A stretch of 46,335 nucleotides of DNA. Origin: a phage. A program made the position numbers and the translations under genes. Under the pieces are notes generated by a model. It had not been told where the DNA came from. It did not search any database and saw nothing but the letters and a program-made list of their open reading frames with translations. The DNA is taken from the NCBI GenBank assembly GCA_033697325.1, contig GCA_033697325.1_4854.1. One strand, 5' to 3'. Numbering within the stretch: the stretch's first letter is position 1; every line of letters starts with the position of its first letter. This document shows, in pieces, positions 16,684-45,492 of this stretch.

Positions 16684-17817
16684 ATGGCAAAAAGACTCAC
16701 CACGGAAGAATTCATTTCTCGCGCCAGACAAAAACATGGCGACAAGTACATTTATCATAAATGTGAATACGTCAACGCAAAAACAAAAATCGTCATAACA
16801 TGTAAAGCGCACGGAGACTTCACTACCATTCCAGCATCGCACTTAAGGGGGCATGAGTGTCTTCGGTGCAGCACTGAACGAGCATCAAAGAGTAGGGTTT
16901 TGGACACTGAAAAGTTCATCATGCGTGCAATGGAAGTTCACGGTGATAGATATAGTTATGAAAATACCAACTACATTTCATCTGATGATAAAGTGGAAAT
17001 AATATGCAGCGAGCATGGGTCGTTTTATCAAAGAGCTGCAGGTCACCTATCAGGGAAAGGATGTTCTGCCTGTGCAGTAATAAGCAAGGCTGCGTCAATG
17101 TCGGTTACTGAGGATTATTTCATTGCCAAATCTATTTCGCGCCATGGCTATAAATACGATTATACGCAATCTTTCCCGCTGATAAAAAAGAAGGCAAAAA
17201 TATCATGCCCTACACATGGGGTTTTTATGCAGTCACCACTTGCACACATGCGCGGGCAAGGATGCCCAGAATGCAGCATTGAAAAGTCCAGATCTACTCT
17301 GCATTCATTTATAGAATCCGCCAGAAGGGTCCATGGATCATCATATATTTATGAAAAAGTTAAATATGTAAACTCAATAACAAAGGTTGTTATCACTTGC
17401 AAGATACATGGCGACTTCCTGCAGCAACCAAATAGACACCTATCTGGGAGGGGTTGCCCTGGTTGTGCTAAAACTGGGTTTGACAAGAACAAGGATGGAT
17501 TCGTTTACTTTCTGATGGGGGATGGCGCTGTGAAGGTTGGCATCACAAACAAACCAAAGCAAAGATTGAGTCAGCTTAAGTCTGAAACCCCATTTGAATT
17601 CTCAGTATTTTCAATTGTCAGGATGTCAGGCGTGGAGGCTATTGAACTTGAAAAATACTATCATAAAAAATATGAGAGAATTGGATTCATTGGATTTAAC
17701 GGCTGTACTGAATGGCTGAAATATTCTAAAGAATTAATGGAAGAGATAATCTATGAGACTTCTAAAAATAAACACAAAGATAACCGCTCAGCCGCGCATA
17801 TCGCAGAGCCTGACTGA
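16684..17817 (+). CDS. Homing-endonuclease-like protein: N-terminal repeat modules plus C-terminal T5orf172/MUG113-type (GIY-YIG-related) domain
   Basis: Four repeats of HGDKY.Y...K..I.C..HG.F...P..HL.G.GCP.C, then GFVYFLMGDGAVKVGITNKPKQRLSQL...EWLKY. Inserted between portal and minor head genes. Confidence 0.6.
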   Translation: MAKRLTTEEFISRARQKHGDKYIYHKCEYVNAKTKIVITCKAHGDFTTIPASHLRGHECLRCSTERASKSRVLDTEKFIMRAMEVHGDRYSYENTNYISSDDKVEIICSEHGSFYQRAAGHLSGKGCSACAVISKAASMSVTEDYFIAKSISRHGYKYDYTQSFPLIKKKAKISCPTHGVFMQSPLAHMRGQGCPECSIEKSRSTLHSFIESARRVHGSSYIYEKVKYVNSITKVVITCKIHGDFLQQPNRHLSGRGCPGCAKTGFDKNKDGFVYFLMGDGAVKVGITNKPKQRLSQLKSETPFEFSVFSIVRMSGVEAIELEKYYHKKYERIGFIGFNGCTEWLKYSKELMEEIIYETSKNKHKDNRSAAHIAEPD

Positions 17818-18706
17818 CCCGTTGGGCGCTGCGGCTCGCCTGTCGAAGATGGATAAGGTGATAACGCGCAAATACAAACAACTCAGGACTCGTGCGCTTG
17901 AGTTGTTTCGCACCATTCCGCATAGCCAGGCTAACGCAGAATCAAGCGGTCTGTATTTCTACGATTTCAGCAGTGCGCGGGCTGCTACATTCATGGATGA
18001 GTTGCAGGCGCTGGTTGACGAGATTCTGCTGGAAGGTGATGATTTTGGTCACGGCAGGATGTGGGCCAATGTGTTCATTGGTGATGCGTATCAGGCCGGA
18101 ACGCAGAAAGCTAACTCAGAACTGTCAAGCCTGTCTCCGGTTTATGCTGAGCAGAGGTCGATTGCCGCGATACTATACAGTGAGCCTTACCTGAATGGAC
18201 TCCGGCTGGCTTACACGCAAGGTTACTCAGACTGGCGCGGATTGAGTGATTATTCCCGTCAGCAGCTGGCGTCCGTCATTATGGAGGGCATTGCCCGTGG
18301 TGCTAATCCTCGCGATGTTGAGGCTGATATTGTCAAGCGTGTTGATGTATCTCACAGTTACGCAAAACAGATAGCGCAGACAGAAATCACAGGAACACTT
18401 CGGCAGGCTAACAGACGAGAGGTTATTGAGGCGCGCGAAGAGTTAGGTATTGAGACGGTGATGCTGTGGCAGTCGGCGCTGATGAAATCAACTAGAGCTT
18501 GGCATGCGTCACGGCATGGCAAGTTCTATACACCGGAAGAGATTGACACGTTTTACAGCGAGGGAGCAAACCGCAGGAACTGCCATTGCGCACAAACTCC
18601 GGCATTGTTAATGGATGGTAAGCCAGTAATTCTTGAGTCTTCGCAGGAAAGGCTTGATAAGCAGCGTGAAGCGTGGCAATCGGCAAACAAAAAGCCCTCT
18701 AAGTGA
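17753..18706 (+). CDS. Minor head / head morphogenesis protein (SPP1 gp7-like)
   Basis: Position after portal and overall resemblance to the Mu F / SPP1 gp7 family. Start uncertain (17753 or 17849). Confidence 0.6.
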   Translation: MRLLKINTKITAQPRISQSLTDPLGAAARLSKMDKVITRKYKQLRTRALELFRTIPHSQANAESSGLYFYDFSSARAATFMDELQALVDEILLEGDDFGHGRMWANVFIGDAYQAGTQKANSELSSLSPVYAEQRSIAAILYSEPYLNGLRLAYTQGYSDWRGLSDYSRQQLASVIMEGIARGANPRDVEADIVKRVDVSHSYAKQIAQTEITGTLRQANRREVIEAREELGIETVMLWQSALMKSTRAWHASRHGKFYTPEEIDTFYSEGANRRNCHCAQTPALLMDGKPVILESSQERLDKQREAWQSANKKPSK

Positions 18707-18720
18707 GGGCTTTGCTTTAT
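18692..18720 (+). terminator. Intrinsic terminator overlapping the stop codon
   Basis: aagccctc-taagt-gagggctt hairpin then tgctttat. Confidence 0.55.
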
Positions 18721-18789
18721 CTTATCAGCATACACAGAACAAATATTATTATCGCATAGCACAATATCTCTACGACGCTGAATATTGTT

Positions 18790-19392
18790 TTAATCATCCA
18801 GTTTAACACCGGGAATCTTGCCTGCTGCGATGGCGTCGTAAATAATTTCGTATTCACTATAAACCCAGTTATCACCCTCATCAGCTTCCTTCTGCATTGC
18901 CTCTATTGCTGCATCTCGCTTTCTTTCTGTTTCTGAATGGGAAGGTCGCAGGAATCTAGCTTCAAAACAACCAAGTCCGTAGCTCATGCGAATAACTGCG
19001 GTATTCTCGACATGAGCAATCACCTCTCCACTTTCACCTTGACCGTACATTAACACTCCGTCAGGGTCTACAATTTCGCAGTGCATTCCAACTGGCGGCA
19101 GACCTTTGCCGTTCCGTGCTGAGTTTTGCGAAGCTGCGAGTGCTGCTTCGTATTGCTTGCGGGTTACGATGCACTCATGCCTGTCATCGGCGAGAATGTC
19201 AATGAATGGGTTGTGCCAATCACCGCTACCCCAATCACCGCCGTACCAGTCTGTTTTTTCTTTGTTCGTATAGACTCCGCTGTGAGAACTAAAGCAAATT
19301 TGAGAGTCAGAATCCTGTACGGCAACTTCAGCAAAATAAGGCCACCCACCACGCTTAGGTAATTCTTGAACTAACAGGTCGATAAGTTTCAT
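18790..19392 (-). CDS. Hypothetical protein (200 aa)
   Basis: SD ggagga; ATGA overlap with the upstream gene. Confidence 0.5.
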   Translation of the reverse strand: MKLIDLLVQELPKRGGWPYFAEVAVQDSDSQICFSSHSGVYTNKEKTDWYGGDWGSGDWHNPFIDILADDRHECIVTRKQYEAALAASQNSARNGKGLPPVGMHCEIVDPDGVLMYGQGESGEVIAHVENTAVIRMSYGLGCFEARFLRPSHSETERKRDAAIEAMQKEADEGDNWVYSEYEIIYDAIAAGKIPGVKLDD

Positions 19393-19598
19393 TTTGTTTC
19401 CTCCACAAACTCAAATTTTGATTCGAATTCCTTTCTGCCAATACAATATTCCATATAAGATTCATTGAACTTTATCATTGGATAGTCAGCAATCAGGATG
19501 TGATTTAACCCTACAGCGGTCACAATGAATCTTGCACCCTCATTCCAATAGTGATAGCTCTTGTAAATGCCACCAACAATTACCTTCTTGTTGCTCAT
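19389..19598 (-). CDS. Hypothetical protein (69 aa)
   Basis: SD gggaga; ATGA overlaps on both sides. Confidence 0.45.
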   Translation of the reverse strand: MSNKKVIVGGIYKSYHYWNEGARFIVTAVGLNHILIADYPMIKFNESYMEYCIGRKEFESKFEFVEETK

Positions 19599-19852
19599 TT
19601 TGTTTCTCCCAATGCTTTGTTGATTGCATCCTGTGCTGATTTAAGCTCTTCTGGGTATGCATCATTCCAGTTTTGCTTATACGCTTTGCTGAGCATTTTC
19701 TGCAAAGCCTCCAGAAGCTCAGGCGCTGCGGCGATGAGGTTGGCATTATCCTTATCGGTAACATCGCACACGAATTGGCCGCCTTTACTATAGACCCCAC
19801 CAAGTTCATCATCGTAATGCCACGACCCCGGGATTCCTTTAAACTCTTTCAT
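19595..19852 (-). CDS. Hypothetical protein (85 aa)
   Basis: SD gtgagg before ATG 19852. Confidence 0.45.
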   Translation of the reverse strand: MKEFKGIPGSWHYDDELGGVYSKGGQFVCDVTDKDNANLIAAAPELLEALQKMLSKAYKQNWNDAYPEELKSAQDAINKALGETK

Positions 19853-19858
19853 GCAACC

Positions 19859-20020
19859 TCACTTAATGTACTCAATAATCTCAACTTCGCGCATCTGCAC
19901 CAGCCCAAATGGCGCAACAACTTTACCGCACGGGAGGATTTTGATTTGCTCAAGACTGAACACTCCGCAGCGTCCGTTTTCTTTGAATTTGACCATTACC
20001 ATGACTTCTTCCTCACTCAT
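19859..20020 (-). CDS. Hypothetical small protein, nearly leaderless
   Basis: ATG about 6 nt downstream of the predicted transcription start of the promoter at 20033-20063. Confidence 0.3.
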   Translation of the reverse strand: MSEEEVMVMVKFKENGRCGVFSLEQIKILPCGKVVAPFGLVQMREVEIIEYIK

Positions 20021-20032
20021 AATTTGATGTAG

Positions 20033-20063
20033 ATACTATGCACCACCACTCAATCTACGTCAA
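20033..20063 (-). promoter_or_regulatory. Leftward promoter with motif pair
   Basis: Minus strand TTGACG, then 17-19 nt, then CATAGT or TAGTAT. Confidence 0.4.
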
Positions 20064-20546
20064 CATTTGTTTCCCATGATTGCTATGAAATCCAAACCGT
20101 CTCTCTGCGTTTTTTCTCGCTGACACCGCAGAATCCTTTGAATCAAATCCGCCAAGGTTAATGTGCTTCCCGTTAACCGTTATCCTTGCAACCCACTTGC
20201 GTCTACTCTTGCACCAATGAACACCAGTCACTCCTGACGTATTCATTCTGTGTGTCTTTTGATTTTTCTGGTTTTCAGCGTGACTCACCAGTCTTAAATT
20301 CTCAATCCTGTTATCAAGCCTGTTATGGTTTATGTGGTCAATCTCCATGCCTTCAGGTATCGGGCCGTTATGCATTTCCCATATGATTCTGTGTGCAAGA
20401 TAGCGCTTACGATTATAGCGAACAATCCTGTATCCGAAATTTGTTACAGAGCCAGCAATGTCTCCGGCTTTTTTAGACGCTAGTGGAGGCATCCTCCATA
20501 GCAGATTGATGCCGTCATAATAGAAAACATCACTCCAATCTTTCAT
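20055..20546 (-). CDS. HNH homing endonuclease with AP2-type DNA-binding domain
   Basis: IDHINHNRLDNRIENLRLVSHAENQ HNH motif; C-terminal GVHWCKSRRKWVARITVNGKHINLGGF AP2-like. SD gggag. Confidence 0.75.
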   Translation of the reverse strand: MKDWSDVFYYDGINLLWRMPPLASKKAGDIAGSVTNFGYRIVRYNRKRYLAHRIIWEMHNGPIPEGMEIDHINHNRLDNRIENLRLVSHAENQKNQKTHRMNTSGVTGVHWCKSRRKWVARITVNGKHINLGGFDSKDSAVSARKNAERRFGFHSNHGKQMLT

Positions 20547-20574
20547 GTTGACTACTCCCAATATCCATACCTTC

Positions 20575-20603
20575 AATCTACATCACCAACTTATCTACGT
20601 CAA
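20575..20603 (-). promoter_or_regulatory. Leftward promoter for the HNH gene
   Basis: Minus strand TTGACG, 17-nt spacer, TAGATT; two motif copies. Confidence 0.5.
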
Positions 20604-20620
20604 CACCATTGTGGTAGAAT
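20598..20620 (+). promoter_or_regulatory. Putative rightward promoter for the lysis cassette (divergent from HNH promoter)
   Basis: TAGAAT -10 at 20615-20620, 27 nt upstream of the SD ggacaggagg. Confidence 0.3.
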
Positions 20621-20646
20621 TAATCATTATTTGGACAGGAGGCAGA

Positions 20647-20925
20647 ATGAAACTATCGCAACGCGGCAAAGAGACCTTTGGAATCACCGATGCCGTGGAT
20701 ATATCGCCTTACATCACCACCGAGACGACACAGAATCAGTTCGACGCGCTAACAAGCCTCGCCGCCGACATTGGCATTGACGCTTTCCGCAAATCAACGC
20801 TTCTTAAGAAACACAATCTACGCTGCTTCTCATGTGCTGTTGCGCATTTCATTGTGTGGGGAGAGAAGACTGGCGATAAAGCAAAACGCAGAACTGAAAA
20901 AGAGGTTTACTGGTATGGCTATTAG
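20647..20925 (+). CDS. GH24 (P22 gp19 / T4 e-type) lysozyme remnant lacking the catalytic core
   Basis: MKLSQRG... then TQNQFDALTSLAADIGIDAFRKSTLLKKHNL matches the N-terminus and C-terminal half of P22-type lysozyme, with about 50 aa of the catalytic region missing. Strong SD. Confidence 0.5.
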   Translation: MKLSQRGKETFGITDAVDISPYITTETTQNQFDALTSLAADIGIDAFRKSTLLKKHNLRCFSCAVAHFIVWGEKTGDKAKRRTEKEVYWYGY

Positions 20926-21379
20926 CAAAAACATGAAGGCATTTCTGGATATGCTGGCGTACAGCGAGGGCACGGATAACGGGCGACAGAAAACCAATAA
21001 TCATGGTTATGATGTGATTGTCGGTGGCTCTCTGTTTACTGATTATGCAGACCACCCACGCAAGCTGATTAGCCTCCCAAAGCTGGGTATCAAGTCCACT
21101 GCCGCCGGTCGCTATCAGGTGCTGGCTAAGTTTTATGATGCGTACAAAAAGCAACTGCGCCTGCCTGACTTCTCTCCTGCATCGCAGGATGCTATTGCAA
21201 TGCAGCTAATCCGCGAATGCAAAGCCACTGCCGACATCGAGGCTGGTCGCATTGCTGATGCCATCCATAAATGCCGTTCTCGCTGGGCTTCACTGCCGGG
21301 CGCTGGCTATGGTCAGCATGAGCAGAAGCTGGATAAGCTGATTGATGTGTATAAGGCCGCTGGTGGTGCTGTGGCATGA
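20915..21379 (+). CDS. Endolysin, lambda R-type lytic transglycosylase
   Basis: KAFLDMLAYSEGTDNGRQKTNNHGYDVIVGG...WASLPGAGYGQHE is near-collinear with lambda R as recalled from memory. Confidence 0.85.
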   Translation: MAISKNMKAFLDMLAYSEGTDNGRQKTNNHGYDVIVGGSLFTDYADHPRKLISLPKLGIKSTAAGRYQVLAKFYDAYKKQLRLPDFSPASQDAIAMQLIRECKATADIEAGRIADAIHKCRSRWASLPGAGYGQHEQKLDKLIDVYKAAGGAVA

Positions 21380-21612
21380 AAAAGCTAAGCAACTGGCTGC
21401 TTGGGGCGTGGATTTCATTCTGTTCGCTGTTGCAGCTGTGGCCTGATGCAATGATGCATGTATGGGTAATGATGCCGGATGACCTGAAAGCGGCGCTACC
21501 GCCAGTCGTGGTGAAAGGTGTGAGCTATTCAATCATGCTGGTTGGAGTTCTCGGCAAGATGCACGGCATGAGGAAGGAAAACCGGAGGCTGCGCGATGAT
21601 GGCAAAAGCTAA
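21376..21612 (+). CDS. Small membrane protein in lysis cassette (possible holin or antiholin)
   Basis: 78 aa with two hydrophobic segments; ATGA overlap with the endolysin stop. Confidence 0.4.
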   Translation: MKKLSNWLLGAWISFCSLLQLWPDAMMHVWVMMPDDLKAALPPVVVKGVSYSIMLVGVLGKMHGMRKENRRLRDDGKS

Positions 21613-21985
21613 ATTAATTATAATTCTGCTATTGACCGGTATTGCTATTGGCTCGCTATCATTTGGCGCTGGCTACCTGAAGGGATGGTATGCTCATAGT
21701 GATAAGGTCAATCTTGATGCCGCCAAGCGCAAACAGAACGCGGAGAATAAACAGGCAAAGTCAACCGCGCAATCACAACAGGTGCGCGTGGTGACGGAAA
21801 CTAAATACAAAACCATTTATCGAGATGTGGTGAAATATGTCTCTGACCCGAATCGTACCATTTGCACTTTTGATGATAACTATATCCGGTTGCGCCAATC
21901 AACTCTCAACGCAGACTCAGCCGTCAGCAGAAATGCTGGGGGAGGTGTGCGAATTATCAAAAGTGGCACCGAAAAACAGCGATGA
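21596..21985 (+). CDS. i-spanin (Rz/LysB-like)
   Basis: N-terminal TM helix LIIILLLTGIAIG followed by a charged coiled-coil region; position after endolysin. Confidence 0.55.
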   Translation: MMAKAKLIIILLLTGIAIGSLSFGAGYLKGWYAHSDKVNLDAAKRKQNAENKQAKSTAQSQQVRVVTETKYKTIYRDVVKYVSDPNRTICTFDDNYIRLRQSTLNADSAVSRNAGGGVRIIKSGTEKQR

Positions 21986-22082
21986 GAGCATCGTTATAGA
22001 AAACCAGAATACGGAGTGCGCCACCAAAAGGAAGATGACTATTTACGATTGGCAGGAATGGTATCGTGATAACTTCCAATAA
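21837..22082 (+). CDS. o-spanin (Rz1/LysC-like lipoprotein), overlapping the i-spanin in another frame
   Basis: Signal peptide with lipobox ITISGC; starts inside and extends beyond the i-spanin gene. Confidence 0.55.
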   Translation: MSLTRIVPFALLMITISGCANQLSTQTQPSAEMLGEVCELSKVAPKNSDESIVIENQNTECATKRKMTIYDWQEWYRDNFQ

Positions 22083-22110
22083 AAAAGCCCCGTAATGGGG
22101 CTTTTGTTTT
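22082..22110. terminator. Bidirectional intrinsic terminator
   Basis: A-run, gcccc-gtaat-ggggc hairpin, T-run. Confidence 0.7.
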
Positions 22111-22303
22111 ATGTGAGACTAATAGGATTTAGTTTATCGATAAATACATCGAATTTAACCCATGTTTGGATGTTTCTTCCGTTAGATAAGTGAATCTCGC
22201 ACCCATCACGCCCAGCAAGAGGAGTCACATCTACGATATGTGCCGAGTTTACAATAATTGCCCTGTCTTCAGTTGTAGGCCAAATGGTTAAAAACTCATT
22301 CAT
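22109..22303 (-). CDS. Hypothetical protein (64 aa)
   Basis: SD gaggg before ATG 22303. Confidence 0.45.
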   Translation of the reverse strand: MNEFLTIWPTTEDRAIIVNSAHIVDVTPLAGRDGCEIHLSNGRNIQTWVKFDVFIDKLNPISLT

Positions 22304-22413
22304 AAAGTGCCCTCATTTTATAGCCAAACATCTGCGCATTCTCATGCTCAACGCTACCAGAAAACACCAGATAGCGACGACCACGATTATCCGTAACGAT
22401 GTAGGCGGACGGC

Positions 22414-22722
22414 TCACTCTGCTGGCAATGTTGTTGGCTCATCAACAGATTCCTCGACCGCAGCTTCAACGATGCGCACCAAAGAACACTCAAGGTTCGG
22501 CGCATTATAATTGCCAGCCAGAAACAGCACGCTACCAGTGCTAATCAGCACCTGCTTTGCGTTCGCCTGAGACAGATTCTGCACGATGAATTGCGCTATC
22601 TCGGTGCCGATTTTCAGCACTGCGCTGCCGTCGCTGTTCAGTGATACCAGTTGTGCGGATGTGTCAGTAATGTTGGTGTAGTTCGCGTTTCGTTGCGCGA
22701 TTGTGATGTCGCAGAATGACAT
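22414..22722 (-). CDS. Hypothetical protein (102 aa)
   Basis: SD ggagag; stop/start overlap with the upstream gene. Confidence 0.45.
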   Translation of the reverse strand: MSFCDITIAQRNANYTNITDTSAQLVSLNSDGSAVLKIGTEIAQFIVQNLSQANAKQVLISTGSVLFLAGNYNAPNLECSLVRIVEAAVEESVDEPTTLPAE

Positions 22723-23213
22723 TATTTAATCTCTCCATTCAGTTCATTAACAATTAACGTCGCATAGCCAGCAATATCTTTCCAGCTATCATCATAAGTC
22801 GGGTCGCCATTCAGAATGCGCCCAATCTTGTGCTGAATCATATCGAGTGCCTCGCGTTGGCTTGGTGTGAGATTGTGCCAGCCATCCACTTCGCGCATGA
22901 CGAATTTTAGTTCCTGCATGATGGCTGCGCCATCTTTGAATTTGCCATAGCGGCTACCGCGCTCGGTAATGAGTTGCTCTGTTGCATCCGATTCCGGCGC
23001 GCCAATGCAATCGTTGAGGTCTTGTTCGTCATTCACCGGTATGCGAATAGCAATTACGATATCTCCAGCACCTTCGATGGTGCTGACTTTTCCTACGTAA
23101 TAGTGACCCAGGTAGTAAATTATACCTGTGAGTCCTGACTTAACTACGACGGAAGCCGTTTTATGACCATCAAAATCCTTCTCGCAACCCTTCAGATATT
23201 CCCAATTACTCAT
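22722..23213 (-). CDS. Hypothetical protein (about 163 aa)
   Basis: ATG 23213 with SD ggaga; no family recognised by eye. Confidence 0.5.
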   Translation of the reverse strand: MSNWEYLKGCEKDFDGHKTASVVVKSGLTGIIYYLGHYYVGKVSTIEGAGDIVIAIRIPVNDEQDLNDCIGAPESDATEQLITERGSRYGKFKDGAAIMQELKFVMREVDGWHNLTPSQREALDMIQHKIGRILNGDPTYDDSWKDIAGYATLIVNELNGEIK

Positions 23214-23225
23214 CACTTTCTCCAC

Positions 23226-23435
23226 TTAATCATTTTCGCGTCGCGGCATTGTGACGCGGTTGTATTCATCAACATTAAAATTGGCCCGAATCAAATCATA
23301 CATATCATCCTTTGGCATATCAGCCAGCGCCACATAGCAGCGGGCAAAGTAGCGAACATCACGGAGTGTTAGCGGCTGCCGCTTCTCCACAATACTGGTG
23401 ATAATGTCCATCGGTTCGCGTCGTGGTCTTGGCAT
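23226..23435 (-). CDS. Hypothetical protein (69 aa)
   Basis: SD aaggag before ATG 23435. Confidence 0.45.
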   Translation of the reverse strand: MPRPRREPMDIITSIVEKRQPLTLRDVRYFARCYVALADMPKDDMYDLIRANFNVDEYNRVTMPRREND

Positions 23436-23463
23436 ATTTACTACTCCTTCTCGAAAAACATCT

Positions 23464-23506
23464 TGACGTTTCTACATCACTTAGTCAATACTTATTGATG
23501 TAGATT
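23464..23506. promoter_or_regulatory. Divergent regulatory region with inverted motif pair
   Basis: TTGACG at 23464, tctacatca at 23471-23479, gatgtagatt at 23497-23506; lies between leftward and rightward operons. Confidence 0.35.
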
Positions 23507-23534
23507 GTACCACAACGGAAAAGGTGATGTGGAA

Positions 23535-23732
23535 ATGAGATACAAAGAAATAGCAGCGAGATATCAGAAAGAGGTGCGCGAGGTTATGGAAATCCTTAAC
23601 GTTCGCGAGGATACCATTAAGTTTGTGGAAACTGCCATGTGTTCACTGGCGCTTGAAGCGGAGGTTGCTGGTCGTGAAAAAGCTGACGAACTTATATCTG
23701 CGGTGGTTTATAGTTCAACCAGTAACGGTTGA
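23535..23732 (+). CDS. Hypothetical protein
   Basis: ATG with SD aggtga. Confidence 0.4.
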   Translation: MRYKEIAARYQKEVREVMEILNVREDTIKFVETAMCSLALEAEVAGREKADELISAVVYSSTSNG

Positions 23733-23792
23733 AGATGAAGGTTACCTGTGCGTTGAGCACGTTGTTATTAAATTCTACGGGAGAAATTATAA

Positions 23793-23987
23793 ATGGCGCA
23801 TGACGAACTGTACGAAGAGTCGCTAATCCAGCGACTGAATGAAGTTGATCGTACTCGCGAATGGCTGGAATGTGAGTTGCGGGAAGTGCGCAACAGACTG
23901 CAACGCAAACGCAGCCAGCAAAAAGACGTTATCGACTGGTCAGGTGATACGCCTAAATTTAACAACTTGGGAGAATGGATAAAATGA
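23793..23987 (+). CDS. Hypothetical protein (64 aa)
   Basis: SD gggaga before ATG 23793. Confidence 0.45.
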   Translation: MAHDELYEESLIQRLNEVDRTREWLECELREVRNRLQRKRSQQKDVIDWSGDTPKFNNLGEWIK

Positions 23988-24713: not shown

Positions 24714-24838
24714 ACCACTTCCGCCATGCGAAATGTCAGGAATTCCGCAACAGGAGGATGTGATTCTCACCGAAGCTGAATGGCGCAAGGTGGCAAGGGT
24801 GCAAATCATGTTCCGAAAACTTGCTGAGGACGTACTAA

Positions 24839-26196: not shown

Positions 26197-28076
<1,880 letters not shown>

Positions 28077-29417: not shown

Positions 29418-29440
29418 AAGCCCTCGATTGAGGGCTTGTC
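29418..29440. terminator. Bidirectional intrinsic terminator
   Basis: aagccctc-gatt-gagggctt hairpin; T-rich on the minus strand after the PP-loop gene stop. Confidence 0.55.
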
Positions 29441-29441
29441 A

Positions 29442-30254
29442 TTAATTCTCATTAGAAAATGCTTCGCAACTCTCGCTGCATGAACCAGTATCGTACTGGC
29501 GCATTGACGTCATTCGTGATGCCAGTTCATCCCTGCTTACATCGTTAAATAAAACTATAACGTCGCCAAGACTTCTGTTTGAGCGATACATTATCTTGTC
29601 TGATTTTTTATCTTCATCCTGAATCATCTTCCAAAACTCAGCAGCAAGTTCCGGCTCATCCTTTGCAGCAAGTGCAACTTTCTGCAGGCTCTTCTTGATG
29701 CAGAAAACGCAATTACCAAGATGCTCCTGAATACCAAGGTCGAATGGTTGCATTGACCACCAGTCAAGGATATCCTGCTTTTCAAAGTCGCTAATGTCTG
29801 CAAGGTAATGAAAACCGTCACCTCGGTTCTTTAACCGGTTTGGTTCATCGGACCTGATGCCAAGCCATCTTTCGTAGTTTCCTTTCCCGTATTTTTCATT
29901 ACAGTATTTAGTGAATGGCACGGTCTTCATTCTGTCGGTGCAGAATGCTCCACCAACGTATGGATGACCATACTTACGCAACATTCTCCGCCACGGCTCA
30001 AGGTCTGGACCAATCTCATCGACGGTTAGCTGCTCATACGTACTTGCCTTACGCATTTGCATATTTGGAACCACGCGAATACATGTCACGGCGACATTGA
30101 AATGCTTTGCGAAGTTGCGAATAAACTCATACGTTTTTGGGTGCTCTGCTCCAGTATCCATAAAGATAATTTCGGCTTCTGGGTGTATCTTTAGCACCTC
30201 CAGCGTCATAAACGCTGAAGTTCTACCGCCTGAAAAGCTAATAACTTGATTCAT
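29442..30254 (-). CDS. PP-loop ATP pyrophosphatase, PAPS reductase-like (DndC/IbrA-like N-domain)
   Basis: N-terminal SFSGGRTS PP-loop motif; 270 aa; SD aaaggag; own promoter. Confidence 0.7.
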   Translation of the reverse strand: MNQVISFSGGRTSAFMTLEVLKIHPEAEIIFMDTGAEHPKTYEFIRNFAKHFNVAVTCIRVVPNMQMRKASTYEQLTVDEIGPDLEPWRRMLRKYGHPYVGGAFCTDRMKTVPFTKYCNEKYGKGNYERWLGIRSDEPNRLKNRGDGFHYLADISDFEKQDILDWWSMQPFDLGIQEHLGNCVFCIKKSLQKVALAAKDEPELAAEFWKMIQDEDKKSDKIMYRSNRSLGDVIVLFNDVSRDELASRMTSMRQYDTGSCSESCEAFSNEN

Positions 30255-30287
30255 GTCCGTCGCTCCTTTCTTATATCTACATCACTC

Positions 30288-30316
30288 ATATTGCGGTCAT
30301 TAGGTATCTACGTCAA
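30288..30316 (-). promoter_or_regulatory. Leftward promoter for PP-loop gene with motif pair
   Basis: Minus strand TTGACG, 17-nt spacer, CAATAT; motif copies at 30275-30284 and 30306-30315. Confidence 0.35.
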
Positions 30317-30358
30317 TATTTATTATAAACAAAACACCTAGTCAGGGTCTTTTGATTG

Positions 30359-34559: not shown

Positions 34560-34636
34560 TGGTGGACACGGACGGATTTGAACCTTCAATCAGCCGATTA
34601 TGAGTCGGTTGCTTTAACCAATTAAGCTACGCGTCC
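34560..34636 (-). tRNA. tRNA with CAU anticodon (elongator Met or lysidine-modified Ile2; not initiator-like)
   Basis: 77-nt cloverleaf folded by hand: 7-bp acceptor stem including one GU, D-arm with GG, anticodon loop CUCAUAA, T-loop GGTTCAAATCC, discriminator A, encoded CCA. G1-C72 pair argues against initiator. Confidence 0.75.
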
Positions 34637-36844: not shown

Positions 36845-36873
36845 CAACATCAGTTAAATTCAGGATGCAAAAC

Positions 36874-37581: not shown

Positions 37582-39953
37582 TGGCTGAAGAAGTCGGCGG
37601 AATTGTCTATGAAGTCGGGATGGATGTTAAAGGCCTGAAAGCTGGCGCGACAACAGCCAATAAGACTTTGGACGACCTTGAATCATCAACCAACAAAACC
37701 ACAAATGCGCTTGGCAAGTTGGATAAAAACGCCAGAAATGCTGGCAACGGGATGAAGAATGCTGGCGGCGCAGCTTCAGGGCTTAAAACCAGCATGTCGA
37801 TGCTTGCTGGCGCAATATCCGTGTCACTGATTATCGAATGGGGCAAGCGATTCCTTGAGGTTGCCGATAACATGACACAGCTTCAGGCAAGGATAAAAAG
37901 GTTAACAGGAGATGCTGAGACCGCGAAGGAAACCTTCAATTCGCTGACAAACATCGCCTCAACCACTGGCGCAAGCCTAAGTGATACCACGGGGCTGTGG
38001 GAAACATTGACGTCATCACTGAAAGAGGCAGGCGCGACAAATGCGCAGGTTCTTAACCTTACAGATACCCTGCAAAAAATAGGTAGAATCGGCGGGTCAT
38101 CAACCGAAGAAATGGCGAACGCATTACGTCAGTTCGGTCAGTCAATCGCATCTGGCACAATCCGCGCCGAAGAATTTAACTCCATCCTTGAACAGATGCC
38201 TGAACTTGCACGCCAGATAGCCGCTGGACTTGGCATTTCAATGGGTGAACTTCGCGCCAGAATGCTTGACGGAAAACTGACGGCGGAAGATGCGCTAAAT
38301 GCCATTCAGGACAGAACAAGCGTAGTTAACGCTGAGTTCGCAAAACTACCGCGCTCTATATCTCAGGCGACTGGTAGTCTTGAAACATCATTTGCAAAAA
38401 TGATAGCAAGCATAAACGACGCAACAGGAGCTAGTTCTGCCTTCGTTTCAGTTATTGACTCTATTACCTCAGCAATCAACAGACTAACTGGTCAAACTGT
38501 AAGTGCGGCAGAGGTTATTTCTGATTTGACGTCAACTGCCGAAATGTTCAGTCGCAGGGCGAGAACTTGGTCATGGGTTGGCATTGACGGATGGGCGGCA
38601 CAAAATCAGGCAATAGCCGCGGTAGCAAATCAGGCTGCAACTTTGGTTTCAGACATGGATGCCGTAACGAAGTCAACAGGAGAAGCAGCAGAAGCGCAGG
38701 CGCATTTGACAGTGCCGCAAACACCACCAAAGGACGGGAAAGGAAAGGGCAAAAGCGCCGAAGAGAGACAAGCTGAATCAGTAGCTGAAAAGCTGGAAAA
38801 ATTACGCCAGCAAACCATGCTCAATGCCACATCTACCAGCGAACTATCACGCGAGCAAGCAATTCTCAATGCGCAGCAATCGCTTGGCAAGGCCGCCACT
38901 CAGGAGCAAATAAAACTGGCTGGCGAGTACGCTGCGAAGATTTGGGACCAGAAAAATGCACTGAAGGAGCAGGCGGAAGCGGAGAAAGAAAGGCAGCGCG
39001 TAGAAAAATCATATCAGGGATTACGTGCCATTGCGTCACCAACGACTGGCATTGACAGTGAATACCAGCAACGCATGGCTGACCTTGATGCCTACGCCGC
39101 AGCATATCCGCAAAAAATCACGGAGATTGAACAGACTCGCTCAGCAATAGAGGCTCAGTACCGCCAGCAACGAATTGATGCCATGTGGGCTGAATGGCAG
39201 CAACAAAGCCTCGGTGCGCAACTGTTCGGCACCGCGCTTGATTCAGCAATGAGCACAGCATCAAACAGCATAACCGGATTGTTGACAGGCACAATGAGCG
39301 TTCAGGATGCCATGCGCAGTCTCGGCTCTACGGTGCTGAACTCTCTGGTAAACAGTTTCGTCGAAATGGGCGTGCAGTGGGTAAAATCTGCGGTCATGGG
39401 ACAGACTGCACAGGTTGCGGCTACAGCAACTACAACGGCGGCGCAAACGGCAGGACTGGCAACCACAACAGCAGCATCCACTGCGGCGGCAGCCACCACC
39501 ACGGCGGCATGGACTCCTGCGGCGATCGTAGCATCAATCGGCTCATTCGGTGGGGCGGCTGCAATTGGGGTTGGTGCCGTTCTAGGGGCGCTGGCGATGG
39601 GTATTGCTGGAAAGCGTAAAAATGGCGGCCCAGTTAGCGCAGGAAGTATGTACGAAGTTGGCGAGGGAAACGCACCAGAAATATTCCAGGCAAGCACAGG
39701 CAGGCAATACATGATACCTGGTAACTCAGGAAAGGTTATCAGCAATAAGGATATTTCCGGTGGAGGTGGCGGAGTTGTGGTTTATAATAATGTTTACAAT
39801 AATTCAAGCAATGCCAGCGCAACAAGCAGAGCCACTGATAACGGTGATGGTTCGATAACTATTGAGACATTTATATCCGATATGAATGAAGGCGGACCGA
39901 TGAGCCAATCTATCTCAAGGAACTTTAATACCAACAGGAGAGCAACCGAATAA
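37581..39953 (+). CDS. Tail tape measure protein
   Basis: 790 aa, alpha-helical Ala/Thr/Gln-rich, lambda-family tape-measure-like N-terminus; TAATG junction. Confidence 0.85.
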   Translation: MAEEVGGIVYEVGMDVKGLKAGATTANKTLDDLESSTNKTTNALGKLDKNARNAGNGMKNAGGAASGLKTSMSMLAGAISVSLIIEWGKRFLEVADNMTQLQARIKRLTGDAETAKETFNSLTNIASTTGASLSDTTGLWETLTSSLKEAGATNAQVLNLTDTLQKIGRIGGSSTEEMANALRQFGQSIASGTIRAEEFNSILEQMPELARQIAAGLGISMGELRARMLDGKLTAEDALNAIQDRTSVVNAEFAKLPRSISQATGSLETSFAKMIASINDATGASSAFVSVIDSITSAINRLTGQTVSAAEVISDLTSTAEMFSRRARTWSWVGIDGWAAQNQAIAAVANQAATLVSDMDAVTKSTGEAAEAQAHLTVPQTPPKDGKGKGKSAEERQAESVAEKLEKLRQQTMLNATSTSELSREQAILNAQQSLGKAATQEQIKLAGEYAAKIWDQKNALKEQAEAEKERQRVEKSYQGLRAIASPTTGIDSEYQQRMADLDAYAAAYPQKITEIEQTRSAIEAQYRQQRIDAMWAEWQQQSLGAQLFGTALDSAMSTASNSITGLLTGTMSVQDAMRSLGSTVLNSLVNSFVEMGVQWVKSAVMGQTAQVAATATTTAAQTAGLATTTAASTAAAATTTAAWTPAAIVASIGSFGGAAAIGVGAVLGALAMGIAGKRKNGGPVSAGSMYEVGEGNAPEIFQASTGRQYMIPGNSGKVISNKDISGGGGGVVVYNNVYNNSSNASATSRATDNGDGSITIETFISDMNEGGPMSQSISRNFNTNRRATE

Positions 39954-39954
39954 A

Positions 39955-39982
39955 AAGAAGCCCCTTATGGGGCTTTGTTTTA
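39955..39982. terminator. Bidirectional intrinsic terminator
   Basis: aagcccc-ttat-ggggctt hairpin with A-run and T-run. Confidence 0.65.
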
Positions 39983-40630
39983 AATCTTATCAGCGCATTT
40001 ACGTACGACCCTCGGTATCGTTTCTTTCAGTTCATCCCATGAGTTGACCGCTTCCATATCCAGAAGTGTGACAAGAGACTTCTGGATATCACTGCGTAAC
40101 TGGTTAGTTTTTGCATCCTGAGAGTCCCATGTGTCAAACCCAGTAACTTCACGGATATCTATCGACTCCTTGACTGACTTTGCCACCTGAATGAAATGCC
40201 CACTATGACCAATTCTACCCTCAGTACGTTCAAGCATTCTGCTGACGGCAGCATTAAGTTCCACGAAACTTACCGCACCAATATTTCGCAACTCAACCTG
40301 TCTCTGCGTAATGAATCGGTCGATGACAAGGAAATGGAAATATGTGCTGTATTGCTCTGCTATATATACAGCCAGATGCAAGCAAGCAAAAGTGGAACCA
40401 TTCCTGCCTCGCGTTGATTTTATTGCGCTATCGATACCAAGTTGCTTTTCGCACTCAGCCTTGAAATCCTTAAATGCATCAGTTGCCATTACCTGTCGTA
40501 TTTCTCTTGTCCTCATCCCATTATCCAGTCTCCAGCGGTTCATCTGGTTAACAAGCTCATTAACGTTAATAAAATTTTCACGGTCGAAAGTGATCTCTCC
40601 GTACGGAAACTCTAATGTTTGCAGTTTCAT
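39980..40630 (-). CDS. KilA-N domain protein (antirepressor/kil-like accessory gene)
   Basis: N-terminal FINVNEL...NGSTFACLHLAVYIAEQYS resembles KilA-N; SD aggaga. Confidence 0.5.
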   Translation of the reverse strand: MKLQTLEFPYGEITFDRENFINVNELVNQMNRWRLDNGMRTREIRQVMATDAFKDFKAECEKQLGIDSAIKSTRGRNGSTFACLHLAVYIAEQYSTYFHFLVIDRFITQRQVELRNIGAVSFVELNAAVSRMLERTEGRIGHSGHFIQVAKSVKESIDIREVTGFDTWDSQDAKTNQLRSDIQKSLVTLLDMEAVNSWDELKETIPRVVRKCADKI

Positions 40631-40660
40631 GATTATTTCTCCTGTTTAATGTGACAATTA

Positions 40661-40684
40661 AATTCTACATTCAAATGTAGAATT
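40661..40684. promoter_or_regulatory. Perfect palindrome AATTCTACATT-CA-AATGTAGAATT (candidate operator) overlapping the leftward promoter
   Basis: 11-bp inverted repeat with 2-bp spacer built from the TCTACAT core of the recurrent motif; TAGAAT -10 and palindromic TTGCAA -35 (18-nt spacer) on the minus strand. Confidence 0.45.
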
Positions 40685-40749
40685 TTTGCAAGCTATTTTA
40701 GATGGCAAAACATCATGGAACGAATGCATTTTAAACCAGCTCATGATGG

Positions 40750-40777
40750 AGTGGTGAAACTTGCGCCGTGCTAAAAT
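40750..40777 (+). promoter_or_regulatory. Rightward extended -10 promoter for tail tip genes
   Basis: TGcTAAAAT at 40769-40777, 27 nt before ATG 40805. Confidence 0.35.
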
Positions 40778-40804
40778 ACATCAACAAAGCGAAGAGGATT
40801 TCAC

Positions 40805-44597
<3,793 letters not shown>

Positions 44598-44608
44598 TTA
44601 AATTTGCT

Positions 44609-44632
44609 GAAGCCCCTCACGGGGCTTTGTTC
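44609..44632. terminator. Bidirectional intrinsic terminator
   Basis: agcccc-tcac-ggggct hairpin; the loop contains the stop codon of the leftward T5orf172-type gene. Confidence 0.6.
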
Positions 44633-45492
44633 ATTATCTCATCCATTAATTCAGATGAATACTTAAGCCACTCAGTTGCGCCATCAAACCCCGTCAGTCC
44701 TGCACTTTCGTATTTCTTATGAAAATACTTCTCCAATGCTGCTGCGTTAACTCCCGTCATTTTAATATGATGAATTTCATTGAAATTGAACGGAGTCTCC
44801 CTCTTAAGAGTTGCTAGCCGCTGGGTGATCTTATTTGTTATCCCGACCTTTATCCCATACTCACTAATTAAAAAGTAAACATAAGCATTTTTTGTCTTGT
44901 CAAATCCACTCTTTGCACAACCAGGGCAACCGCGCCCCTTAAGGTGATTGGAAGGAGTAACCATGAAATCACCATGAATACCACATGTGACAATGACTTT
45001 CTCTGATACCTTTTTGCATATTGTTTTATCATATTTATACCTAAAAGAGTGAATCAGATTAGATTTAAAAACAAAGTCATGTGTATTAACCCTTCCTTTA
45101 CCAGAGCATTTTTGGCAACCTTGACCACTCAAGTGCTTATCTGGAGATTTCAAAAAATCACCATGCTTTTTGCATGTTATTATTATCTTACTGGTTCCGT
45201 TTTTATATACTGTTTTTCCGTAATCATACAAATCACCATGCTTTAACTTTGCTTTCATTATGAACTCTTCGGTGTTCATCGTCATCCTTGATGATGCGCA
45301 CTCAGCTTGACATTTAATGCATCCTCGACCAAGTAGGTGGTTAGCAGCCCTCTGCTTAAACTCTCCGTGTTTCTTGCAAATTATTGTTACGTAAGATTTA
45401 TTGCCGTTGTATTCAACCATTGAGTAATCATACTTATCCCCATGGATCAATATCGACTTTGACACAAAGTCATTAGTTGTCATTCTTTTCAT
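44617..45492 (-). CDS. Homing-endonuclease-like protein, paralog of 16684-17817 (repeat modules plus T5orf172/MUG113-type domain)
   Basis: Three repeats of HGDKYDY...I.C.KHG.F...P..HL.G.GC.KC, then AYVYFLISEYGIKVGITNKITQRLATL...EWLKY. Confidence 0.6.
   Translation of the reverse strand: MKRMTTNDFVSKSILIHGDKYDYSMVEYNGNKSYVTIICKKHGEFKQRAANHLLGRGCIKCQAECASSRMTMNTEEFIMKAKLKHGDLYDYGKTVYKNGTSKIIITCKKHGDFLKSPDKHLSGQGCQKCSGKGRVNTHDFVFKSNLIHSFRYKYDKTICKKVSEKVIVTCGIHGDFMVTPSNHLKGRGCPGCAKSGFDKTKNAYVYFLISEYGIKVGITNKITQRLATLKRETPFNFNEIHHIKMTGVNAAALEKYFHKKYESAGLTGFDGATEWLKYSSELMDEIMNKAP

What the first reader, a model, noticed from the sequence alone, without database searches (positions are those of the whole stretch)
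16684..45492. Two paralogous T5orf172-type repeat proteins at module junctions
The genes at 16684-17817 and 44617-45492 share the same repeat module and C-terminal T5orf172/MUG113-like domain. Both sit at junctions between conserved structural genes (portal/minor head and tail tip/fiber). This is the usual behaviour of free-standing homing endonucleases. Along with the intein and the HNH gene, that makes four selfish nuclease elements in 46 kb.
Basis: partly seen in the sequence, partly recalled or inferred. Interest (0 to 1): 0.5.

Follow-up and report, generated by a model that had tools for sequence, protein, structure and literature searches.

The report
Two mobile phage homing-nuclease genes
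Two related nuclease genes wedged between essential head and tail genes of this Salmonella/E. coli-type phage behave like selfish "homing" genes, a known kind; one of them sits behind a conserved folded RNA leader that also precedes many other phage homing-nuclease genes.

Summary
ORFs 16684-17817(+) and 44617-45492(-) are paralogues (47% identity over 285 aa, E 4e-96). They carry 4 and 3 zinc-finger repeats (DUF723/DUF4379/CapR type) plus a C-terminal T5orf172 (GIY-YIG-fold) domain with intact catalytic residues.

Both are insertions at gene junctions that are empty in many relatives: portal|head-morphogenesis and tail protein|tailspike.

- A 99%-identical copy of the second gene lies at the same junction in another phage. 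It sits inside a ~1.1 kb tract with 1.9% mismatches, against 12.2% in the flanks (p~1e-20).
- The gene at the first junction was deleted in viable engineered seszw mutants.
- Both genes are under purifying selection.

The free-standing homing-endonuclease reading is therefore supported. This gene class has already been described (Barth et al. 2023), so these are new members of a known kind. Cleavage and homing remain untested.

Unexpected extra: the 95-nt leader of the first gene is an int-alpA-type RNA (Rfam RF02996). It has strong covariation, starts right after a -10 box, and one hairpin loop is complementary to two sites next to the ribosome-binding site. In viral contigs this leader precedes homing-nuclease ORFs of several families (at least 47 of 90). 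It may be a dedicated expression controller.

The parts
16684..17817 (+). HEG1: free-standing T5orf172 nuclease gene, 377 aa. Zinc-finger repeats R1 16693-16869, R2 16900-17073, R3 17104-17274, R4 17293-17466; T5orf172 domain about 17497-17751. An alternative in-frame upstream start lies at 16525.
   Evidence: A 92%-identical orthologue sits at the same site in metagenomic phages.
16542..16589 (+). Variant 3' end of the portal gene that travels with the HEG cassette. It encodes ...[15 protein letters not shown] in place of ...TPQEDENEDTPV* of empty-site phages.
16587..16683 (+). HEG1 leader. Extended -10 box TGATATAAT at 16587-16595 (its TG lies in the portal stop codon). int-alpA-type RNA fold at 16600-16664: P1 16601-16607/16645-16651, P2 16610-16621, P3 16627-16642 with loop AACGTAGA at 16631-16638. 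Site A TCTACG 16658-16663. Small hairpin AACC 16664-16667 / GGTT 16676-16679 around site B CTACG 16670-16674. Start codon at 16684.
   Evidence: Rfam RF02996, 32.5 bits (gathering score 35.8), E 2.4e-5. Covariation on 55 copies. Promoter position. Loop-to-target complementarity.
17753..17817 (+). Overlap of the HEG1 3' end with the start of the head-morphogenesis gene. The first 12 codons of that gene are recoded here (MRLLKINTKITAQ against MKILRFNARLSQ in the empty-site phage SB28).
44617..45492 (-). HEG2: free-standing T5orf172 nuclease gene, 291 aa. Repeats R1 45310-45486, R2 45106-45279, R3 44917-45090; T5orf172 domain about 44626-44883.
   Evidence: Orthologues of 99% and 80% identity sit at the same junction in contigs L090 and L091.
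44608..44629 (.). G+C-rich hairpin between the convergent tail-protein gene and HEG2, overlapping the last HEG2 codons. Terminator-like. It marks the 3' edge of the cassette shared with HEGs at the tape-measure junction of other phages.
   Evidence: Window 44610-44733 is 93.5% identical to the 3' end of the swi2 tape-measure-junction HEG.
45493..45569 (.). Spacer between HEG2 and the tailspike gene (which starts at 45570). It contains TGATACAAT (45532-45540, + strand), also present before the tailspike gene in empty-site phages, and an extended -10-like TGATAATAT on the - strand upstream of HEG2. No int-alpA fold.
   Evidence: The promoter assignments are read from the sequence, not tested.
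44574..45706 (.). High-identity tract shared with metagenomic phage contig L090. It covers the last codons of the tail gene, HEG2, the spacer and the first ~45 tailspike codons. It marks a recent exchange or co-conversion tract.
   Evidence: 21 mismatches in 1115 nt inside 44586-45700 against 99 in 810 nt outside; Fisher p about 1e-20.
3423..4466 (-). Approximate extent of the Hint + LAGLIDADG intein inside the helicase gene 1653-4607.
   Evidence: Intein-less helicases of 621-649 aa occur in relatives.
20055..20576 (-). HNH_3 + AP2 endonuclease gene, about a 530-bp insertion relative to relatives.

Best explanation
Both genes are free-standing homing endonuclease genes of the T5orf172 (GIY-YIG superfamily) class.

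Inferred mechanism:
1. The array of 3-4 zinc-finger repeats reads a long DNA site in phage genomes that lack the gene.
2. The C-terminal T5orf172 domain cuts nearby.
3. During mixed infection the break is repaired from the gene-carrying genome. This copies the cassette, plus a short stretch of flanking essential genes, into the empty junction.

Shown here:
- The domain architecture and an intact catalytic core.
- Insertion/empty polymorphism at both junctions.
- Relatives of the gene at other junctions.
- A sharp conversion-tract signature for HEG2.
- Purifying selection on both genes.
- Dispensability of the site-1 gene in a related phage.

Inferred only: DNA cleavage, the target sequences, and unidirectional inheritance.

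Each cassette brings replacement terminal codons for the upstream essential gene. HEG1's 3' end overlaps the head-morphogenesis start, as the portal gene's 3' end does at empty sites. HEG1 is expressed from its own extended -10 promoter through an int-alpA-type structured leader, which probably limits its translation.
For: Architecture:
- Pfam and PHROG assignments.
- Invariant Y206, K215, G217, R225, E254, H258, E274, W275 and all Cys/His ligands across 40 homologues.

Site 1 polymorphism:
- Empty in SB28 and DS8, and apparently in other natural phages.
- Occupied by different alleles in Skate, LPST49, Seszw_1, L096 and L101.

Site 2 polymorphism:
- 141/203 records are contiguous across the junction.
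- Junction anatomy.
- Orthologues at the same junction.

Other junctions: after the head-morphogenesis gene and after the tape-measure gene in sal3, swi2 and SeLz-2.

Identity step for HEG2: 98.3% against 89% in the flanks, p~1e-20.

Selection and divergence:
- HEG1 dS 0.25 against portal 0.45 and head-morphogenesis 0.66.
- dN/dS 0.06 (HEG2 vs L090), 0.145 and 0.27 (HEG1 vs L096 and L101).

Module swapping:
- L101 has the same DNA-binding region (93-98% nt) but a different nuclease domain (60-83%).
- The HEG2 3' end matches the swi2 tape-measure-site HEG.
- SB28 and KE12 carry related repeats with a non-T5orf172 C-terminal domain at site 2.

Dispensability: seszw_70S is a clean deletion of the site-1 gene in a viable CRISPR-reduced mutant (PMC9825161).

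Family context: 829 phage records and 1637 places by tblastn. The class is described in PMC10448857. Odn, a T5orf172 protein, cleaves DNA in vitro in a glutamate-dependent way (PMC8263062).
Against: - No biochemical or genetic test of cleavage or homing exists for these two proteins. For the ICP1 T5orf172 genes, homing 'has not been experimentally verified'.
- HEG1 shows no sharp identity step against L096 or L101, so vertical inheritance explains its recent history about as well.
- The identity step around HEG2 proves recent recombinational exchange, not that a nuclease caused it.
- Target sites are not identified.
Confidence: 0.8

Rival explanations
1. The proteins are domesticated derivatives that no longer home. 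They would act either as sequence-specific DNA-binding regulators (like the satellite protein CapR) or as nucleases aimed at competitors or satellites (like Odn) that benefit the phage.
For: The same zinc-finger domain acts as a repressor in CapR (PMC8096241). A T5orf172 nuclease acts as an anti-satellite weapon in ICP1 (PMC8263062). Both genes are under purifying selection. HEG1 has persisted at its site across diverged phages without a sharp identity step.
Against: - The catalytic residues are invariant, which argues against a pure repressor.
- Distribution is sporadic, with many empty sites, and the seszw gene is dispensable.
- The family hops between junctions next to essential genes.
- HEG2 has a conversion-tract footprint.
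- No match to known defence-system models.
Confidence: 0.1
2. The genes are passive cargo (moron-like insertions) spread only by ordinary homologous or illegitimate recombination between mosaic phages. Any nuclease activity plays no part in their spread.
For: These phages are highly mosaic. The replication module 1199-10814 is unrelated at DNA level to that of Seszw_1, sal3 and LPST49. A mosaic boundary lies at site 1 even in the empty-site phage DS8. Non-nuclease insertions occupy the same hot spots, such as the KilA-N ORF at the tape-measure junction.
Against: - Several junctions are repeatedly occupied by one nuclease family and by other nuclease families.
- The catalytic cores are conserved under purifying selection.
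- The exchanged tract around HEG2 is tight and centred on the gene.
Confidence: 0.08
3. The proteins have a required role in head or tail assembly because of their positions inside structural operons.
For: Position only. HEG1's stop overlaps the head-morphogenesis start.
Against: Many relatives lack them at both sites. Viable seszw mutants lack the site-1 gene. No structural-protein domains were found.
Confidence: 0.02

Closest known systems
T5orf172 putative homing endonuclease genes of ICP1, T5-like and other phages (Barth, Dunham & Seed 2023, PMC10448857)
   Same: C-terminal T5orf172 domain, N-terminal arrays of CapR/DUF723/DUF4379 zinc fingers ('beads on a string'), position next to essential structural genes, module swapping between paralogues, location at boundaries of exchange.
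   Different: A different phage lineage (Skatevirus-like enterobacterial siphophages) and different insertion sites. This case adds a defined donor/recipient-like pair with a ~1.1 kb conversion tract, and a structured RNA leader on one gene. I did not find such a leader in the sections of the paper I read.
Free-standing GIY-YIG homing endonucleases of phage T4 (Seg proteins, e.g. SegG) and I-TevI
   Same: GIY-YIG-fold catalytic domain tethered to a separate DNA-binding region. Intergenic insertion between conserved genes. Co-conversion of flanking markers. I-TevI is among the top structural matches. The biology is from established literature, cited in PMC10448857.
   Different: Here the nuclease domain is C-terminal, not N-terminal. 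DNA binding uses tandem zinc-finger repeats rather than an I-TevI-type linker plus helix-turn-helix. Sequence similarity to Seg/Tev proteins is not detectable (PDB sequence search empty).
CapR (PLE satellite repressor) and Odn (ICP1 origin-directed nuclease)
   Same: CapR shares the zinc-finger DNA-binding domain. Odn shares the T5orf172 nuclease domain with a catalytic Glu.
   Different: CapR is the DNA-binding portion used as a repressor. Odn has a RepA_N DNA-binding domain and targets a satellite origin. The window proteins keep both modules and behave as insertions.
int-alpA RNA motif (Rfam RF02996) and, by analogy of logic, the c4 (P1/P7) and CI (P4) immunity antisense RNAs
   Same: The HEG1 leader matches the int-alpA covariance model in sequence and in its three-helix fold. 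A copy in phage sal3 passes the gathering score. As I recall for c4/CI RNAs, a loop sequence is complementary to two short sites on the same transcript near a ribosome-binding site.
   Different: The window copy scores 32.5 bits, below the 35.8 gathering score. Rfam files int-alpA as an sRNA of unknown function. The link to homing-nuclease ORFs, the -10 box position and the loop-to-target complementarity are my observations. No match to the Rfam C4 model was found.

Membership tests
T5orf172 / GIY-YIG superfamily nuclease domain | Match to the Pfam T5orf172 (PF10544) and MUG113 (PF13455) profiles above their curated cut-offs | tested here: met
   33.3 and 30.9 bits against 20; 31.9 and 42.3 bits against 22.3.
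T5orf172 / GIY-YIG superfamily nuclease domain | Conserved core residues: Tyr of 'GIY', the K-V-G ('YIG') strand, catalytic Arg, catalytic Glu | tested here: met
   Y206, K215, G217, R225, E254, H258, E274 and W275 are invariant in 40 homologues including both window proteins.
T5orf172 / GIY-YIG superfamily nuclease domain | GIY-YIG alpha/beta fold | tested here: met
T5orf172 / GIY-YIG superfamily nuclease domain | Metal-dependent DNA cleavage | not testable with these tools
   Shown only for the relative Odn (PMC8263062).
Free-standing homing endonuclease gene | Presence/absence polymorphism at the same locus among related genomes, with the flanking genes intact | tested here: met
   Site 1. 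Site 2.
Free-standing homing endonuclease gene | The element is more similar between genomes than its flanks (recent lateral spread with a co-conversion tract) | tested here: met
   HEG2: 1.9% against 12.2% mismatches, p~1e-20. HEG1: weak only, dS 0.25 against 0.45 and 0.66 with no sharp step.
Free-standing homing endonuclease gene | Dispensable for phage growth | tested here: met
   Shown for the site-1 gene of phage seszw, a different allele: it is cleanly deleted in the viable mutant seszw_70S (PMC9825161). Not tested for the window's own genes.
Free-standing homing endonuclease gene | Site-specific cleavage of the gene-less allele and super-Mendelian inheritance in mixed infection | not testable with these tools
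Also unverified for the ICP1 T5orf172 genes.
CapR / DUF723 / DUF4379 zinc-finger DNA-binding repeats | Profile matches and conserved Cys/His ligands in each repeat | tested here: met
CapR / DUF723 / DUF4379 zinc-finger DNA-binding repeats | Sequence-specific DNA binding | not testable with these tools
   Shown for CapR only (PMC8096241).
int-alpA RNA (Rfam RF02996), for the HEG1 leader | Score at or above the Rfam gathering threshold | tested here: not met
   The window copy scores 32.5 bits against 35.8 (E 2.4e-5 local, 0.0056 window-wide). A sister copy in phage sal3 scores 42.6 bits.
int-alpA RNA (Rfam RF02996), for the HEG1 leader | Three-helix fold supported by covariation | tested here: met
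   On 55 distinct copies, 90.5% of cells are paired against 29-54% when partners are slid. Covariation score 0.514 against at most 0.12. 176 compensatory cells.

The most novel reading that the evidence does not exclude
The int-alpA RNA motif, filed in Rfam as an sRNA of unknown function, may be the promoter-proximal 5' leader of a portable expression cassette used by phage homing-endonuclease genes of several unrelated nuclease families (T5orf172, HNH_3/NUMOD4, HNH, Endonuclease VII).

Its third hairpin loop co-varies with two short sites placed just before and at the ribosome-binding site. This suggests a c4/CI-like kissing-loop or antisense switch that throttles translation of the nuclease. 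It could act in cis or between co-infecting genomes. HEG1 in this window would be one example.
Probability: 0.4. Interest if true: 0.7.

Novelty: new member of a known kind. Interest (0 to 1): 0.42.

Why it matters
The two genes themselves are ordinary for the field. T5orf172 genes with zinc-finger arrays next to essential phage genes were catalogued in 2023.

What this window adds is practical. Homing by this class has never been demonstrated. Here the pieces for a direct test are laid out:
- a gene-carrying allele;
- natural empty alleles with a conserved 39-nt junction;
- a mapped ~1.1 kb conversion tract;
- a closely related phage (seszw) that is already tractable by CRISPR editing.

HEG2 also abuts the conserved N-terminal anchor of the tailspike, just before the point where tailspikes diverge. 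Breaks made there could promote exchange of host-range modules.

The side observation may matter more. A structured RNA of unknown function turns out to sit, at the start of a transcript, in front of homing-nuclease ORFs of several families. Its built-in complementarity to the ribosome-binding region gives a testable function for int-alpA RNAs. It also suggests a general answer to how selfish nucleases keep their own expression low.

Tried and rejected
- Single-sequence RNA folding of both upstream regions gave no signal (z +0.93 and -1.58), so I first dismissed any structure. Only the recurrence of the leader at other sites and the Rfam hit revealed it.
- I first concluded that no phage record carries a homing gene at site 2. 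That was wrong. SB28 and KE12 carry a different one there, with related zinc-finger repeats but a non-T5orf172 C-terminal domain.
- IMG/VR held no close relatives of either protein (at most 47% identity). The large protein collection did.
- Foldseek against the PDB found nothing significant for the whole model.
- A PDB sequence-profile search was empty.
- PADLOC and NCBIfam gave no meaningful hits for the two proteins.
- The consensus promoter scan did not flag the extended -10 boxes. Those are read from the sequence and from their fixed position in 83 of 100 leader copies.
- The upstream start at 16525 is disfavoured. The extension is absent from all other family members and overlaps the leader RNA. 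It is not excluded.
- The supplement of the paper that described int-alpA is not held. I therefore could not check whether its authors noted nuclease genes nearby.
Full report
WHAT THE WINDOW IS. The window is a Skatevirus-like siphophage genome of the Salmonella/E. coli/Klebsiella group. About 170 phage records share 80-95% identical DNA over the structural genes. It starts and ends inside the tailspike gene. The replication module 1199-10814 is unrelated at DNA level to that of Seszw_1, sal3 and LPST49. It is shared with ECO111 5-P, YX3973 and Sf11, so the genome is mosaic.

THE OBSERVATION. ORF 16684-17817(+) (377 aa, HEG1) and ORF 44617-45492(-) (291 aa, HEG2) are real. They are clear paralogues: 47% identity over 285 residues, E 4e-96.
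- Both end in a T5orf172/MUG113 domain above the Pfam cut-offs.
- Both begin with tandem ~65-residue repeats matching DUF4379 and DUF723, with a weak CapR match.
- HEG1 has four repeats and HEG2 three. All seven keep the pattern F, H, Y-x-Y, C-x2-H-G-x-F, H, G, C-x2-C.
- Both fall in phrog_681 'endonuclease'.
- The window has no other copy.
- The neighbours are as stated: portal and Mu-F-like head-morphogenesis genes at site 1, and the large tail protein and the tailspike (Tail_spike_N) at site 2.
- The intein (Hint + LAGLIDADG in the helicase) and the HNH_3-AP2 gene are also real.

SITE 1, PORTAL|HEAD MORPHOGENESIS.
- Empty alleles. In SB28 and DS8 the portal gene overlaps the head-morphogenesis gene by 20 nt with nothing between. 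An empty-site probe is contiguous in other natural phages, for example INT55, Segz_1, KFSST1, ECO111 5-P and Sf11. It also matches, across the junction only, phages whose portal gene is a different allele: DS8 (checked) and, judged only from the search table, swi2, IME207 and C1.
- Insertion anatomy. Base-level comparison shows that the cassette replaces 19 nt of SB28 (...ATGGAAGAC|ACACCACAGGAAGATGAAA|ATGAAGATACTCCGG...). It supplies a new portal tail ([15 protein letters not shown]), a 94-nt spacer and the nuclease ORF.
- Right-hand junction. In Skate and LPST49 the nuclease ORF runs into the old portal tail and stop (...NEDTPV*), keeping the overlapped head-morphogenesis start. In the window and in L096 the right junction differs: the first 12 head-morphogenesis codons are recoded, and the nuclease ORF ends 65 nt into that gene.
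- Alleles. At least three nuclease alleles share the same 5' end at this site: the window/L096 type with four repeats, the Skate/LPST49 type with three, and the Seszw_1 type.
- Orthologues. Proteins 92% and 86% identical to HEG1 sit at the same site in metagenomic phages. In L101 the DNA-binding part is 93-98% identical at DNA level, but the nuclease part only 60-83%. That indicates a module swap.
- Dispensability. The seszw gene at this site is cleanly deleted in viable genome-reduced mutants made by CRISPR.

SITE 2, TAIL PROTEIN|TAILSPIKE.
- Empty alleles. In DS8, swi2, sal3 and Seszw_1 the two genes are separated by an identical 39-nt spacer, TACAATATACATCAAATTCACAAAGGAGCATTTATTATA. 141 of 203 matching records are contiguous across this junction.
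- The insertion. The window instead carries different last codons of the tail gene, a hairpin (44608-44629), HEG2 on the opposite strand, and a 77-nt spacer. The spacer retains TGATACAAT before the tailspike gene.
- Orthologues. No phage genome record carries HEG2 itself; the best tblastn match is 53%. The large protein collection holds a 99% and an 80% orthologue, each at the same junction in a different phage.
- Identity step. Against the first of these (L090), the cassette region has 21 mismatches in 1115 nt (window 44586-45700). The flanks have 99 in 810 nt (Fisher p about 1e-20). The boundaries lie between 44573 and 44661, and near 45706. Beyond 45940 the two tailspikes are unrelated. This is the footprint expected of recent lateral transfer with a short co-conversion tract. 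The tract reaches further on the tailspike side, so I infer that the cut site lies there.
- Other occupants. SB28 and KE12 hold a different gene in the same place and orientation. It has four related zinc-finger repeats (40-44% identity) fused to a non-T5orf172 C-terminal domain (phrog_559/3339). The junction is therefore a hot spot for more than one nuclease type.

FAMILY BEHAVIOUR. In sal3, members lie after the head-morphogenesis gene and after the tape-measure gene. In swi2 and SeLz-2 they lie after the tape-measure gene. The last 124 nt of HEG2 plus its hairpin are 93.5% identical to the swi2 tape-measure-site gene, while the rest is about 47% identical at protein level. tblastn finds the family in 829 phage records at 1637 places, with up to 16 places per genome.

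SELECTION. Simple Nei-Gojobori estimates show purifying selection: dN/dS 0.06 (HEG2 vs L090), 0.145 (HEG1 vs L096) and 0.27 (HEG1 vs L101). The portal gives 0.08 and head morphogenesis 0.075. HEG1's synonymous divergence from L096 (0.25) is lower than that of its neighbours (0.45 and 0.66).

COMPARISON WITH WHAT IS KNOWN. Barth, Dunham and Seed (2023) described exactly this class. They reported T5orf172 genes with repeated CapR/DUF723/DUF4379 zinc fingers, near essential phage genes, with domain swapping and location at exchange boundaries. They also note that homing of the ICP1 genes 'has not been experimentally verified'. Nuclease activity dependent on the conserved glutamate has been shown for the T5orf172 protein Odn. 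DNA binding by the zinc-finger domain has been shown for CapR. The window's genes are therefore new members of a known kind.
- The intein is absent from the helicases of Seszw_1, sal3, LPST49 and L091.
- The HNH gene is a ~530-bp insertion absent from L096, Skate and Seszw_1. A 74%-identical relative sits at another site in Seszw_1.

AN UNEXPECTED PART OF THE HEG1 CASSETTE. The spacer before HEG1 is not site-specific.
- Recurrence. Its core recurs before family members at other junctions, and before an HNH gene in Seszw_1.
- Identity. It matches Rfam RF02996, int-alpA RNA, at 16600-16664 with 32.5 bits. That is just below the 35.8 gathering score (E 2.4e-5 locally, 0.0056 for the whole window). 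A copy in sal3 scores 42.6 bits.
- Abundance.
- Covariation. On 55 distinct copies the three-helix fold is strongly supported. 90.5% of cells are paired against 29-54% when partners are slid. The covariation score is 0.514 against at most 0.12. Pairs lying outside the fixed bases of the search pattern switch freely, for example GC 37 / AU 9 / UA 7 / CG 2 with none unpaired.
- Promoter. In 83 of 100 distinct contexts a TAnnnT box ends 8-13 nt before the motif (2 of 100 in a control window), and 40 have the TG of an extended -10. In the window this is TGATATAAT at 16587-16595, whose TG lies in the portal stop codon. The fold therefore sits at the very 5' end of a transcript.
- Downstream ORFs. 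An ORF of at least 60 aa starts within 200 nt in 112 of 121 copies, at a median of 31 nt. Of 90 non-redundant ORFs, 34 match HNH_3, 13 T5orf172, 5 HNH, 4 HNH_5 and 3 Endonuclease VII. So at least 47, and up to 59, are homing-nuclease types. The rest include helix-turn-helix proteins, a primase-polymerase, a replication protein and a terminase.
- Loop-to-target complementarity. The loop of the third hairpin is complementary to downstream sequence. Taking one copy per distinct loop (n = 46), the mean longest match is 5.26 nt against 3.45 nt (sd 0.17, maximum 3.87) in 300 permutations. In 38 of 46 there are two separate sites, one about 8 nt after the fold and one next to the Shine-Dalgarno sequence, often inside a small hairpin. 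In the window the loop AACGUAGA faces UCUACG (16658-16663) and CUACG (16670-16674).
- Interpretation. From memory, this logic resembles the c4 RNA of P1/P7 and the CI RNA of P4, where a loop pairs with two sites on the same transcript. I propose, as inference only, that the leader throttles translation of the nuclease. HEG2 and its orthologues lack this leader.
- Limits. I could not check whether the authors of int-alpA noted nuclease genes nearby. The main text does not mention them, and the supplement is not held. The copies were collected with a pattern derived from the leader, and the scan was truncated. The 52-66% figure therefore comes from a sample, not a census.

VERDICT. The two genes are new members of a described class of putative homing endonucleases. 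The evidence for mobility is good for HEG2 and adequate for HEG1. Direct evidence for cleavage is absent. The main added values are a ready-made experimental system for testing T5orf172 homing, and the link between int-alpA-type RNA leaders and homing-nuclease genes.

Noticed in passing
window 16587-16683 (+); also L093 3376-3480, 27150-27258(-), 45148-45221; L092 44643-44745; L006, L007, L009, L086, L089; IMG/VR loci L105-L224: The HEG1 leader is an int-alpA-type structured RNA (Rfam RF02996) placed right after a -10 box. The same leader precedes homing-nuclease ORFs of several families (HNH_3, T5orf172, HNH, Endonuclease VII) in viral contigs. Its third hairpin loop is complementary to two sites near the ribosome-binding site.
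   Followed up: partly
L103 2817-4487(-) (phage SB28) and L104 3934-5382(-) (phage KE12): A different 'homing endonuclease' occupies the same tail-protein|tail-fibre junction, in the same orientation as HEG2. It has four related zinc-finger repeats but a non-T5orf172 C-terminal domain (phrog_559/3339). This suggests interchangeable nuclease modules on one type of DNA-binding array.
   Followed up: partly
window 39980-40630 (-): A 216-aa ORF with an N-terminal KilA-N domain (phrog_6095, labelled 'amidase') fills the junction after the tape-measure gene. That junction is empty in DS8 and holds T5orf172 genes in sal3, swi2 and SeLz-2, so it is a third insertion hot spot.
   Followed up: partly
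window 20055-20576 (-): The HNH_3 + AP2 endonuclease gene is a ~530-bp insertion absent from L096, Skate and Seszw_1. A 74%-identical relative lies upstream of the portal gene in Seszw_1 and LPST49.
   Followed up: partly
window 1653-4607 (-); L096 50-2569: The helicase carries a Hint + LAGLIDADG intein that is missing from the helicases of Seszw_1, sal3, LPST49 and L091. A related metagenomic phage (L096) has a similar intein in its large terminase instead.
   Followed up: partly
L102 1501-1545 (phage DS8), equivalent to window ~16520-16590: In empty-site phages of the DS8/swi2/IME207/C1 type, DNA similarity to SB28 starts only ~25 nt before the head-morphogenesis start, because the portal gene is a different allele. 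A mosaic boundary therefore coincides with the HEG insertion point even where no HEG is present.
   Followed up: partly
window 1199-10814: The whole replication module (helicase, AAA_24, DUF669, primase-polymerase) has no DNA match in Seszw_1, sal3 or LPST49. It is 90-93% identical to ECO111 5-P, YX3973, gmqsjt-1 and Sf11. This is module-level mosaicism.
   Followed up: partly
window 1-789 (+) and 45570-46335 (+): The window begins in the C-terminal (endosialidase-like) part and ends in the N-terminal (Tail_spike_N) part of a tailspike gene. The reading frames do not join, so the window looks like a circularly permuted genome lacking a piece of that gene.
   Followed up: no
window 34563-34636 (-): A tRNA gene (Rfam 63.4 bits) lies on the minus strand inside the tail-gene region. 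It is also present in Seszw_1 and sal3.
   Followed up: no
window 29442-30254 (-): A 270-aa ORF with a PAPS-reductase-like domain lies in a ~900-bp segment (29424-30324) that has no DNA match in Seszw_1, sal3 or LPST49.
   Followed up: no
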